Shown piece after piece: positions 2,037 through 5,581 of a DNA stretch of 64,000 nucleotides. Both the position numbers and the translations under genes were made by a program. The DNA lies in assembly GCF_057098645.1 (NCBI RefSeq), contig NZ_CM169472.1; one strand, 5' to 3'. The notes under the pieces are model-generated. The model ran no database searches. It was not told the origin of the DNA and saw only the letters and a program-made list of their open reading frames with translations. How positions within the stretch are numbered: the first letter of the stretch is position 1; each line of letters starts with the position of its first letter.

Positions 2037-2049
2037 TGCTCTTTAAAAA
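2037..2049 (+). promoter_or_regulatory. spacer boxA-like antitermination element (tgctctttaaaaa)
   Basis: boxA-like motif between tRNA-Ala and the 23S start. Confidence 0.55.
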
Positions 2050-2156
2050 TCTGGATCAAGCTGAAAATTGAAACACTGAACAACGAGAGTTGTTCGTGAG
2101 TTTCTCAAATTTTCGCAACACGATGATGAATCGAAAGAAACATCTTCGGGTTGTGA

Positions 2157-5061
<2,905 letters not shown>

Positions 5062-5153
5062 ACAACGCCGAAGCTGTTTTGGCGGATGAGAGAAGATTTT
5101 TAGCCTGATACAGATTAAATCAGAACGCAGAAGCGGTCTGATAAAACAGAATT

Positions 5154-5273
5154 TGCCTGGCGGCCTTAGCGCGGTGGTCCCACCTGACCCCATGCCGAAC
5201 TCAGAAGTGAAACGCCGTAGCGCCGATGGTAGTGTGGGGTCTCCCCATGCGAGAGTAGGGAACTGCCAGGCAT
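5154..5273 (+). rRNA. rrfH: 5S ribosomal RNA
   Basis: tgcctggcggcc...gggaactgccaggcat, 120 nt. Confidence 0.97.
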
Positions 5274-5463
5274 CAAATTACGAAGAATGGCAATGACCCT
5301 TGAGGCAGTTCACTACTCGATAGAGAGTAGGACAAAAGCGAAAGCTTTTGAACGTTGCGAAGCAACGGCCCGAAGGGTGAATCACGAAGTGATTCATAAA
5401 CTGCCAGGCATCAAATTAAGCAGTAAGCCGGTCATAAAACCGGTGGTTGTAAAAGAATTCGGT

Positions 5464-5540
5464 GGAGCGGTAGTTCAGTCGGTTAGAATACCTGCCTGTC
5501 ACGCAGGGGGTCGCGGGTTCGAGTCCCGTCCGTTCCGCCA
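5464..5540 (+). tRNA. aspU: tRNA-Asp (GTC anticodon), distal tRNA of the rrn operon
   Basis: ggagcggtagttcagtcggttagaatacctgcctgtcacgcaggg...ccgcca, 77 nt. Confidence 0.96.
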
Positions 5541-5550
5541 CTTATTAAGA

Positions 5551-5581
5551 AGCCTCGAGTTAACGCTTGAGGTTTTTTTTC
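5551..5581 (+). terminator. rrn operon intrinsic terminator
   Basis: GC hairpin cctcgagttaacgcttgagg followed by a T8 run. Confidence 0.7.

What the first reader, a model, noticed from the sequence alone, without database searches (positions are those of the whole stretch)
5390..5420. 20-nt repeat of the 5S 3' end between rrfH and aspU
aactgccaggcatcaaatta occurs at the 5S 3' end (5261-5280) and again about 137 bp downstream (5398-5417). This may be a remnant of a second 5S gene or a processing-site duplication.
Basis: seen in the sequence. Interest (0 to 1): 0.2.

Follow-up and report, generated by a model that had tools for sequence, protein, structure and literature searches.

The report
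tRNA-linked repeat element after rrfH
The repeated 20 bases are the defining end-repeat of a known kind of small structured RNA element, a tRNA-linked repeat, which here sits between the 5S rRNA gene and tRNA-Asp in the rrnH operon; about 10% of E. coli strains carry this copy and K-12 does not, so it is an ordinary new copy of a known family.

Summary

It is the defining repeat of a tRNA-linked repeat (TLR; Egan & Landy 1978, Rudd 1999, Stenum et al. 2021, as described in PMC8144298). A TLR is a structured element that follows a tRNA or rRNA gene and ends in a copy of that gene's 3' end.

The 118 nt between the copies are not 5S-like. They match Rfam RtT (31 bits, below threshold), the tyrT repeats and the K-12 rrnB T1-T2 element (sRNA RrB).

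A scan of other genomes found the same core after tRNA-Tyr, Lys, Arg, Pro and 5S genes, and nearly every copy ends in its own host gene's 3' end.

This rrnH copy is absent from K-12; deleting exactly 138 bp reproduces the K-12 sequence. It is present in about 573 of 5426 E. coli genomes and at the same position in Kluyvera and Siccibacter, so it is ancestral and K-12 lost it.

Unlike RrA/B/F it has no T1 terminator and only one GGA motif.

It is most likely cut out by RNase E at the duplicated site (inferred). It is a new member of a known kind and of low interest.

The parts
5154..5273 (+). 5S rRNA gene rrfH, the host gene of the element
   Evidence: Rfam 5S_rRNA at 93.2 bits. The 120-nt alignment to K-12 rrfH shows one difference, T at 5166 against G.
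5261..5280 (+). Direct repeat copy 1: the last 13 nt of 5S plus 7 nt of trailer. The RNase E maturation site is expected between 5276 and 5277 (CAA|AUU).
   Evidence: Exact match. The cut position is inferred from the RrB 5' end mapped 3 nt after the mature 5S end (PMC8144298).
5281..5398 (+). Body of the tRNA-linked repeat (TLR), 118 nt that are absent from K-12 rrnH
   Evidence: Rfam RtT covers 5291-5413 at 31.3 bits, E=1.2e-4. It aligns to the tyrT RtT units and to the K-12 rrnB/A/D elements. Removing 5281-5418 reproduces K-12.
5288..5292 (+). 5' strand (TGGCA) of the outer helix, predicted to pair with TGCCA (5402-5406) inside repeat copy 2
   Evidence: MFE and centroid structure of 5277-5414.
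5304..5318 (+). Left arm: an inverted copy of the 5S 3' region. GGCAGTT is complementary to AACTGCC at the start of both repeat copies.
   Evidence: Inverted repeat I1, 15 nt, 93% complementary to 5253-5267.
5310..5332 (+). Host-like hairpin (CTACTC-GATAGA-GAGTAG). Its 3' strand, GAGAGTAGG, repeats 5S 5251-5259.
   Evidence: Direct repeat D7; fold.
5333..5350 (+). Hairpin 1, CAAAAGC-GAAA-GCTTTTG. Its sequence varies across the family but the pairing is kept.
   Evidence: Folds. 76 distinct hairpin sequences occupy this slot among 147 family members.
5353..5367 (+). Hairpin 2, CGTTGC-GAA-GCAACG, part of the conserved core
   Evidence: Exact core motif, shared by 150 hits in 120 loci.
5368..5378 (+). 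Hairpin 3, GCCC-GAA-GGGT, part of the conserved core. Alternatively AAGGGT (5373-5378) pairs with ACCCTT (5296-5301).
   Evidence: Inverted repeat I2; MFE; the K-12 rrnB fold shows the local hairpin.
5378..5396 (+). Hairpin 4, TGAATCAC-GAA-GTGATTCA, variable in sequence. Siccibacter has a compensatory change (TCGC/GCGA).
   Evidence: Inverted repeat I12, 8 of 8 bases complementary. Alignment. 86 distinct hairpin sequences in this slot.
5399..5418 (+). The predicted second RNase E site lies between 5414 and 5415.
   Evidence: Exact match. By analogy, the RrB 3' end maps 3 nt after the repeat (PMC8144298).
5277..5414 (+). Predicted excised TLR RNA, 138 nt (inferred, not observed)
   Evidence: MFE -54.1 kcal/mol, z = -7.75 against 200 shuffles. 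The ends are set by homology with mapped RrB.
5464..5540 (+). tRNA-Asp(GTC) aspU, downstream in the same transcript. Its leader (5419-5463) is identical to K-12.
   Evidence: ARAGORN, Rfam, alignment.
5553..5580 (+). Hairpin (CCTCGAG-TTAACG-CTTGAGG) followed by T8: the likely single terminator of the operon, after aspU
   Evidence: Read directly from the sequence. The scan tool did not report it.

Best explanation
The second copy of the 5S 3' end is the defining terminal repeat of a tRNA-linked repeat (TLR), a member of the RtT/RrB family, lying between rrfH and aspU. The element consists of a left arm complementary to the start of the repeat, a 5S-like hairpin, a conserved set of four hairpins, and an exact copy of the last 13 nt of 5S plus 7 nt of trailer. 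It is transcribed as part of the rrnH primary transcript. No terminator separates 5S from aspU, so it should be made in equal amount with rrnH 5S. Because the repeat re-creates the 5S 3' maturation site, RNase E most likely cuts after both copies (5276/5277 and 5414/5415). That would release p5S and a 138-nt structured RNA, and leave a tRNA-Asp precursor with exactly the K-12 leader. At the DNA level the two 20-bp repeats allow precise loss of the element, and K-12 and most E. coli carry that deletion product. Shown here: the repeat, homology to TLRs, host-specific ends across the family, presence/absence variation, and the same position in other genera. Inferred: transcription, the RNase E cuts, and the deletion mechanism. 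Unknown: what the RNA does. The paralogs RrA/B/F bind Hfq and CsrA in vitro, but their GGA loop motifs are not conserved in this copy. The confidence given is for the identity as a TLR; for the RNase E two-site excision I would put it at about 0.6.
For: Repeat and gene order.
Homology:
- Rfam RtT matches over its full length, E=1.2e-4.
- The core aligns closely with the tyrT units and the K-12 rrnA/B/D elements.
Family rule:
- 150 core hits in 120 loci.
- 112 of these have tRNA-Tyr, Lys, Arg or Pro, or 5S, as the nearest same-strand gene within 700 nt upstream.
- Of 93 elements lying directly after such a gene, 82 carry an exact copy of at least 13 nt (up to 27) of that gene's 3' end starting 4-29 nt after the motif.
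- The copies include variant-specific matches: CCAGACAT in 5S and CCCCCGCCACCA in tRNA-Tyr.
Literature: TLRs are defined by this feature. RrB ends were mapped 3 nt after the 5S end and 3 nt after the repeat, and RNase E was proposed (PMC8144298).
Structure: z = -7.75. Hairpins 1 and 4 keep their pairing across 76 and 86 different sequences, and Siccibacter has a compensatory change.
Variation within E. coli: 573 of 5426 genomes carry it, in 5S-TLR-tRNA-Asp-dkgB order in all three checked. The window minus 138 bp equals K-12 apart from 5 mismatches and one 1-nt gap over 609 nt.
Ancestry: the same slot is filled in E. coli E69, Kluyvera and Siccibacter.
Against: - The Rfam RtT score of 31.3 bits is below the family's gathering score of 45, so formal Rfam membership is not met.
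- There is no expression or end-mapping data for this copy. The RNase E cuts are taken from a paralog that differs in context: it has T1/T2 and no downstream tRNA.
- The predicted fold of the 5S+TLR precursor pairs the 5S 5' strand with repeat copy 2 rather than copy 1. If that happened in vivo it would complicate simple two-site processing.
- Deletion by recombination between 20-bp repeats is plausible but was not demonstrated.
- The core motif used for the genome scan fixes hairpins 2 and 3, so their conservation in that set is by construction.
Confidence: 0.85

Rival explanations
1. Decayed second 5S gene: rrnH once had tandem 5S genes as rrnD does, and the 138 bp are what is left of the second one.
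For: The 3' 13 nt of 5S plus trailer are retained exactly. GAGAGTAGG, the 3' strand of 5S helix V, recurs at 5323-5331. AATGGCA at 5286-5292 loosely resembles the 5' strand of helix I and is predicted to pair with the repeat. The element is about the size of 5S.
Against: No 5S covariance-model match in 5276-5463 even at E<=10, while RtT matches over its full length. The central 65 nt are homologous to elements that follow tRNA-Tyr, Lys, Arg and Pro, and to free-standing copies with no rRNA nearby. K-12 rrnD has two intact 5S genes and also a TLR after the second one. The two 5S-like pieces are separated by the core, whereas in 5S they are adjacent.
Confidence: 0.07
2. Mobile-element insertion with target-site duplication: a small non-autonomous element inserted into the 5S 3' end and duplicated 20 bp of target, or an integrase-type element carrying its own copy of the gene end.
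For: Direct repeats flank the element exactly. It is present or absent among E. coli strains. The same core lies after many different genes and also free-standing and in tandem in Pseudomonas, Marinobacter and Alloalcanivorax. In tRNA hosts the repeat starts in the T-loop, which from general knowledge of tRNA-gene integration sites is a common crossover point for integrases.
Against: The same position is filled in Kluyvera, Siccibacter and a divergent Escherichia, which points to old vertical inheritance at this locus, and the two E. coli alleles differ by 2.5-4%. The window sequence around the element shows no terminal inverted repeats, transposase or integrase. The repeat length and sequence are host-specific, not fixed. 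The left arm and the adjacent hairpin also copy host sequence, which a simple target duplication does not explain. The empty site equals a simple deletion between the repeats.
Confidence: 0.1
3. Chance repeat or assembly artefact.
For: None beyond the shortness of the repeat.
Against: 0 of 100 shuffles gave any match. The same structure is found in 573 independent complete genomes and in other genera.
Confidence: 0.01

Closest known systems
tRNA-linked repeats (TLRs) of E. coli (Egan & Landy 1978; Rudd 1999: 22 copies at 10 K-12 loci; as described in PMC8144298)
   Same: It lies directly after a stable-RNA gene in the same operon and on the same strand, and its 3' end is identical to the 3' end of that gene. 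The hairpin core is shared.
   Different: This copy is at rrnH, a locus with no TLR in K-12. The repeat is 20 bp rather than the quoted 18-19.
RrA/RrB/RrF sRNAs of rrnA, rrnB and rrnD (Stenum et al. 2021, PMC8144298)
   Same: They are also linked to 5S and have the same AACTGCCAGGCAT... repeat. The segment GAGTAGGACAAA...TTTGAACGTTGCGAAGCAACGGCCCG.AGGGTG...CATAA is conserved, and the expected RNase E ends are the same.
   Different: - There is no T1 terminator inside the element and no T2 after it; a tRNA-Asp follows instead.
- The period is 138 rather than 168 nt.
- Hairpins 1 and 4 have different sequences.
- It has 1 GGA motif against 5, so CsrA binding is doubtful.
- It should be made in equal amount with rRNA rather than only by read-through of T1, which terminates about 87% of transcripts (Orosz 1991, as cited in PMC8144298).
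RtT RNA of the tyrT operon (Rfam RF00391; rttR)
   Same: The core and overall architecture are the same. The match covers the full length of the model, and the core aligns closely.
   Different: The host is 5S rather than tRNA-Tyr, so the arms differ. The score is 31 bits against 133-137 for the tyrT units and is below the gathering score.
Second 5S gene rrfF of rrnD
   Same: Both are an extra sequence carrying a 5S 3' end, distal to the first 5S gene.
   Different: rrfF is a complete 5S gene scoring 90 bits. This element has no 5S match.

Membership tests
tRNA-linked repeat (TLR) | Located directly downstream of a tRNA or rRNA gene, on the same strand and within its operon | tested here: met
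   The element begins 7 nt after the 5S 3' end, lies upstream of aspU, and is on the + strand.
tRNA-linked repeat (TLR) | The 3' end of the element (18-19 bp) is identical to the 3' end of the upstream gene | tested here: met
   20 of 20 bases are identical; 13 nt lie in mature 5S and 7 nt in the trailer.
tRNA-linked repeat (TLR) | Sequence homology of the body to other TLRs | tested here: met
   Alignment with the tyrT units and rrnA/B/D elements. RtT covariance-model match at E=1.2e-4. The 25-nt core motif is shared with 150 hits.
tRNA-linked repeat (TLR) | Transcribed with the operon and processed to a discrete RNA | not testable with these tools
   This needs RNA data from a strain that carries the element.
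Rfam RF00391 (RtT RNA) | Score at or above the curated gathering score of 45 bits | tested here: not met
   31.3 bits. Other 5S-linked copies score 29.6-32.3 bits, and the K-12 rrnB type gives no match.
RrA/B/F sRNAs | Lies between dual terminators T1 and T2 at the end of an rrn operon | tested here: not met
   There is no T1 hairpin and no run of five or more T between 5274 and 5463. tRNA-Asp follows. The 42 nt on the left of the element replace T1.
RrA/B/F sRNAs | GGA motifs in hairpin loops (CsrA-binding sites) | tested here: not met
   1 GGA (at 5330, not in a loop) against 5 in K-12 rrB. The loops here are GAAA, GAA, GAA and GAA.
RrA/B/F sRNAs | Binds Hfq and CsrA | not testable with these tools
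   This needs pull-down or EMSA experiments.
5S rRNA gene or pseudogene | Recognisable by the 5S covariance model | tested here: not met
   No RF00001 match in 5276-5463 at E<=10.

The most novel reading that the evidence does not exclude
The TLR core may be an old structured RNA module of Gammaproteobacteria, possibly able to spread. It occurs free-standing and in tandem in Pseudomonas, Marinobacter, Alloalcanivorax and Stenotrophomonas. In stable-RNA operons it is embedded in a split, partly inverted copy of the host gene's 3' part, so that the host's own maturation enzymes cut it out. The terminator-less rrnH copy would then give about 10% of E. coli lineages, including O145:H28, O104:H4 and O111, an RNA made in equal amount with rRNA that K-12 lacks. 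Its function may differ from that of RrA/B/F.
Probability: 0.2. Interest if true: 0.5.

Novelty: new member of a known kind. Interest (0 to 1): 0.25.

Why it matters
In itself it matters little. It explains an unannotated 138-bp stretch in the rrnH operon of some E. coli lineages as a copy of a family known since 1978.

It has three modest uses:
- **Annotation gap.** 5S-linked TLRs fall below Rfam's RtT threshold or are missed entirely, and RefSeq leaves the region blank.
- **A natural test case.** TLRs have no established function. This copy is a terminator-less, GGA-poor variant with naturally occurring presence and absence among strains, which could be used to test what TLR RNAs do.
- **A caution.** K-12 is not representative of rrn operon ends in E. 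coli.

Tried and rejected
- **5S remnant.** I searched the insert against all Rfam families at E<=10. There was no 5S match, so this reading is rejected for the body of the element.
- **Rfam on the K-12 rrnA/B/D elements.** No RtT match at E<=0.01, so Rfam does not link the two 5S subtypes. The link rests on direct alignment.
- **Host-specificity of the left arm.** A 10-nt complementarity score was clear for Lys and Tyr hosts, tied for Arg, and not discriminating for 5S. I therefore claim it only from the window's own sequence and from the Lys and Tyr classes.
- **Structural alignment.** MAFFT did not align the variable hairpins in register. I counted hairpins per sequence instead and built no covariance model.
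- **Terminator scan.** It found nothing, but it also missed the obvious terminator after aspU, so its negative result is weak. The absence of T1 rests on reading the sequence.
- **Older papers.** Bosl & Kersten 1991 (PMC329039) is not held. Rudd 1999, Egan & Landy 1978 and Brosius 1981 could not be read, so what they say is taken from PMC8144298.
- **Context of the free-standing copies.** A crude ORF analysis was inconclusive in high-GC genomes.
- **Other rrn operons of this strain.** I did not locate the other six operons of the window's own strain. Sister O145 genomes show only one place for this element.

Full report
**1. Observation.**
The window starts with an E. coli rrnH operon:
- 16S at 169-1710;
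- tRNA-Ile and tRNA-Ala;
- 23S at 2157-5061;
- 5S;
- tRNA-Asp(GTC) at 5464-5540;
- then dkgB.

Over 5276-5463 the window is 100% identical to E. coli O145:H28 RM12761. The 20-mer AACTGCCAGGCATCAAATTA occurs exactly twice, at 5261-5280 and 5399-5418, 138 nt apart. No further copy appears with up to 3 mismatches, and none of 100 shuffles gave a match. By alignment to K-12 rrfH, 5S is 5154-5273. The repeat is therefore the last 13 nt of 5S plus 7 nt of trailer.

**2. Comparison with K-12 rrn operons.**
I fetched the distal ends of all seven MG1655 operons.
- K-12 rrnH and rrnC have a 52-nt 5S-tRNA-Asp spacer with a single copy of the 20-mer.
- rrnG and rrnE also have one copy.
- rrnA and rrnB have a second copy 168 nt downstream, between terminators T1 and T2.
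- rrnD has the same after its second 5S gene. There the variant CCAGACAT is present both in rrfF and in the downstream copy.

Removing exactly 5281-5418 from the window gives the K-12 rrfH-aspU sequence, with 5 mismatches and one 1-nt gap over 609 nt. The right two thirds of the window's insert align with the K-12 T1-T2 spacer: GAGTAGGACAAA [hairpin] TTTGAACGTTGCGAAGCAACGGCCCG.AGGGTG [hairpin] CATAA + repeat. The two bracketed hairpins have different sequences that still pair. The left 42 nt replace T1.

**3. Identity.**
A search of 5276-5463 against all of Rfam at E<=10 gave no 5S match. It did give a full-length match to RtT RNA (RF00391): 31.3 bits, E=1.2e-4, below the gathering score of 45. 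A weaker match was to Aggregatibacter sRNA 22.

RtT is the repeat unit of the tyrT operon. In K-12 each unit ends in a copy of the tRNA-Tyr 3' end, ATCCTTCCCCCACCACCA. The unit aligns closely with the window's insert through AGCGAAAGC...GAACGTTGC..GCAACGGCCCGAAGGGTGA...CGAAG...ATAA.

The literature names this family. The tRNA-linked repeats (TLRs) were first seen in 1978, and Rudd counted 22 copies at ten K-12 loci in 1999. [quoted passage not shown] That paper shows the following for the rrnA, rrnB and rrnD copies:
- They are sRNAs, named RrA, RrB and RrF.
- The 173-nt form starts 3 nt after the mature 5S end, at the known RNase E site.
- It ends 3 nt after the repeat, which the authors propose is also an RNase E site.
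- A 115-nt form is enriched on Hfq.
- The RNA binds CsrA.
- Its half-life is about 2.5 min.
- T1 terminates about 87% of transcripts, so expression depends on read-through.

The paper does not mention rrnH.

**4. The family rule, checked independently.**
I scanned 100,044 species genomes for CGTTGC-N3-5-GCAACGRCCCGRAGGG.
- Of these, 112 have a tRNA-Tyr(GTA), Lys(UUU), Arg(ACG or CCG), Pro(UGG or CGG) or 5S gene as the nearest same-strand gene within 700 nt upstream. For the element directly after the gene the distance is 37-113 nt.
- The rest have no such gene, or the locus ends too close to the hit to tell.
- Of 93 elements lying directly after such a gene, 82 carry an exact copy of at least 13 nt (up to 27) of that gene's own 3' end starting 4-29 nt after the motif.
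- For tRNAs the copy starts in the T-loop, (A)ATCC...CCA.
- For 5S it starts at AACTGCC.
- Variant bases in the gene are mirrored in the copy.

5S-linked elements fall into two subtypes:
- **Period about 137 nt:** no terminator, followed by tRNA-Asp or tRNA-Thr. This is the window's type.
- **Period about 168 nt:** contains T1 and is followed by T2. This is the K-12 rrnA/B/D type.

**5. Anatomy and structure.**
The window's element has these parts, in order:
- an outer-helix strand TGGCA (5288-5292), predicted to pair with TGCCA inside repeat copy 2;
- a left arm, 5304-5318, that is an inverted copy of 5S 5253-5267;
- a hairpin whose 3' strand, GAGAGTAGG, repeats 5S 5251-5259;
- four hairpins, at 5333-5350, 5353-5367, 5368-5378 and 5378-5396;
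- repeat copy 2.

The 138-nt RNA 5277-5414 folds at -54.1 kcal/mol, z = -7.75.

Across 147 family members, the slots of hairpins 1 and 4 hold 76 and 86 different hairpin-forming sequences. In 132 and 121 of the members respectively, the slot forms at least 4 pairs. Both slots are more stable than shuffled controls. Siccibacter shows a two-sided compensatory change in hairpin 4. Hairpins 2 and 3 were fixed by the search motif, so their conservation in this set says nothing.

**6. Distribution and history.**
- The element-specific 118 nt match 573 of 5426 complete E. coli genomes, usually once per genome.
- 27 genomes match at >=99% (the O145 lineage). 546 match at 95-99% (for example O104:H4, O111, O22:H8 and ETEC).
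- The three records I inspected (RM12761, 2012EL-2448 and UTME-6) are all 5S-TLR-tRNA-Asp-dkgB.
- RefSeq annotates nothing over the element.
- The same slot is filled in E. coli E69 (dkgB 96.6% identical at the protein level), Kluyvera (89.9%) and Siccibacter (79.8%).
- The same subtype sits between 5S and tRNA-Thr in Superficieibacter and Pseudocitrobacter.

The long form is therefore ancestral at rrnH. The K-12 short form is best read as a deletion between the two 20-bp repeats (inferred).

**7. How it most likely works.**
- **Shown:** the element lies inside the operon upstream of aspU, with no T1 hairpin and no run of five or more T. The scan tool also found no terminator there, but it missed the obvious one after aspU.
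- **Inferred from RrB:** RNase E cuts after CAA in both repeat copies. This would release p5S and a 138-nt structured RNA, and leave a tRNA-Asp precursor whose leader is identical to K-12's.
- **Expression level (inferred):** because T1 is absent, the RNA should be made in equal amount with rrnH rRNA, not at the roughly 13% read-through level of RrA/B/F.
- **CsrA binding (doubtful):** the GGA loop motifs implicated in CsrA binding are missing, 1 GGA against 5. A CsrA-titrating role is unlikely to carry over.
- **Function:** unknown. The one early functional claim for a TLR (RtT) was retracted.
- **Alternative pairing:** the predicted precursor fold pairs the 5' strand of 5S with repeat copy 2 instead of copy 1. 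This is a thermodynamic prediction only.

**8. Verdict.**
- 'Second 5S remnant' is wrong for the body of the element.
- The element is a TLR of the terminator-less 5S subtype, at a locus where K-12 has none. It falls below Rfam's threshold and RefSeq does not annotate it.
- It is a new member of a known kind, and interest is low.

A side observation may deserve separate follow-up. The same four-hairpin core, with GGA-rich loops, occurs free-standing in Pseudomonas, Marinobacter, Alloalcanivorax and Stenotrophomonas. Rfam found no tRNA or rRNA gene anywhere in the five such loci it scanned, and it has no family for these copies.

Noticed in passing
L029, L030, L031, L115-L117 (Pseudomonas); L069 (Marinobacter); L082, L083, L123 (Alloalcanivorax); L015, L048 (Stenotrophomonas): Free-standing copies of the TLR four-hairpin core, some in tandem, with GGA-rich loops (CGGGAG, AGGGAT). 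No tRNA or 5S was found upstream of any of them. Rfam found no tRNA or rRNA gene anywhere in the five loci it scanned (L015, L029, L069, L083, L116) and has no family for them at E<=0.1.
   Followed up: partly
L024, L025, L063, L064 (Gilliamella); L034 (Zophobihabitans); L019 (Marinobacterium); L032, L033 (Amphritea): tRNA-linked TLRs with host-specific 3' end copies also occur outside Enterobacterales, in Orbales and in the genera Marinobacterium and Amphritea. This is wider than the range described in PMC8144298.
   Followed up: partly
window 5251-5259 / 5323-5331 and 5253-5267 / 5304-5318; tyrT units in L009: TLRs look like a split and partly inverted copy of the host gene's 3' part. Host sequence just upstream of the repeat recurs before the core (GAGAGTAGG here; AAGGTTCGA of the T-arm in tRNA-linked copies), and a complement of the start of the repeat precedes it. 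I could not check whether this is already described in Rudd 1999.
   Followed up: partly
L004 (K-12 rrnD); L035, L059 (Citrobacter): The 5S variant CCAGACAT is mirrored in the TLR repeat copy of the same operon. In K-12 rrfF it is also compensated in the 5' strand of helix I (TGTCTGG). Gene end and repeat copy thus change together.
   Followed up: partly
window 5166: This rrfH has T (U13) where K-12 rrfH has G.
   Followed up: no
K-12 L003:265-412 searched against E. coli genomes: The rrB-type element is found in only 3978 of 5426 E. coli genomes, at 1-10 places per genome. 70 places are on plasmids, which may reflect rrnB T1T2 terminator cassettes or real variation.
   Followed up: no
window 5151-5414: The predicted lowest-energy fold of the 5S+TLR precursor pairs the 5' strand of 5S with repeat copy 2, and pairs copy 1 with TGGCA of the element. 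The two are alternative, mutually exclusive partners.
   Followed up: no
window 5553-5580: An obvious hairpin plus T8 terminator after aspU was not reported by the terminator scan.
   Followed up: no
window 2041-2149: An Rfam StyR-44 (RF01830) match at 120 bits lies in the spacer just upstream of 23S.
   Followed up: no
summary: A few E. coli genomes have up to 3 places matching the rrnH-type element, and 2 places are on plasmids. I did not inspect them; they could be tandem copies or a second operon.
   Followed up: no
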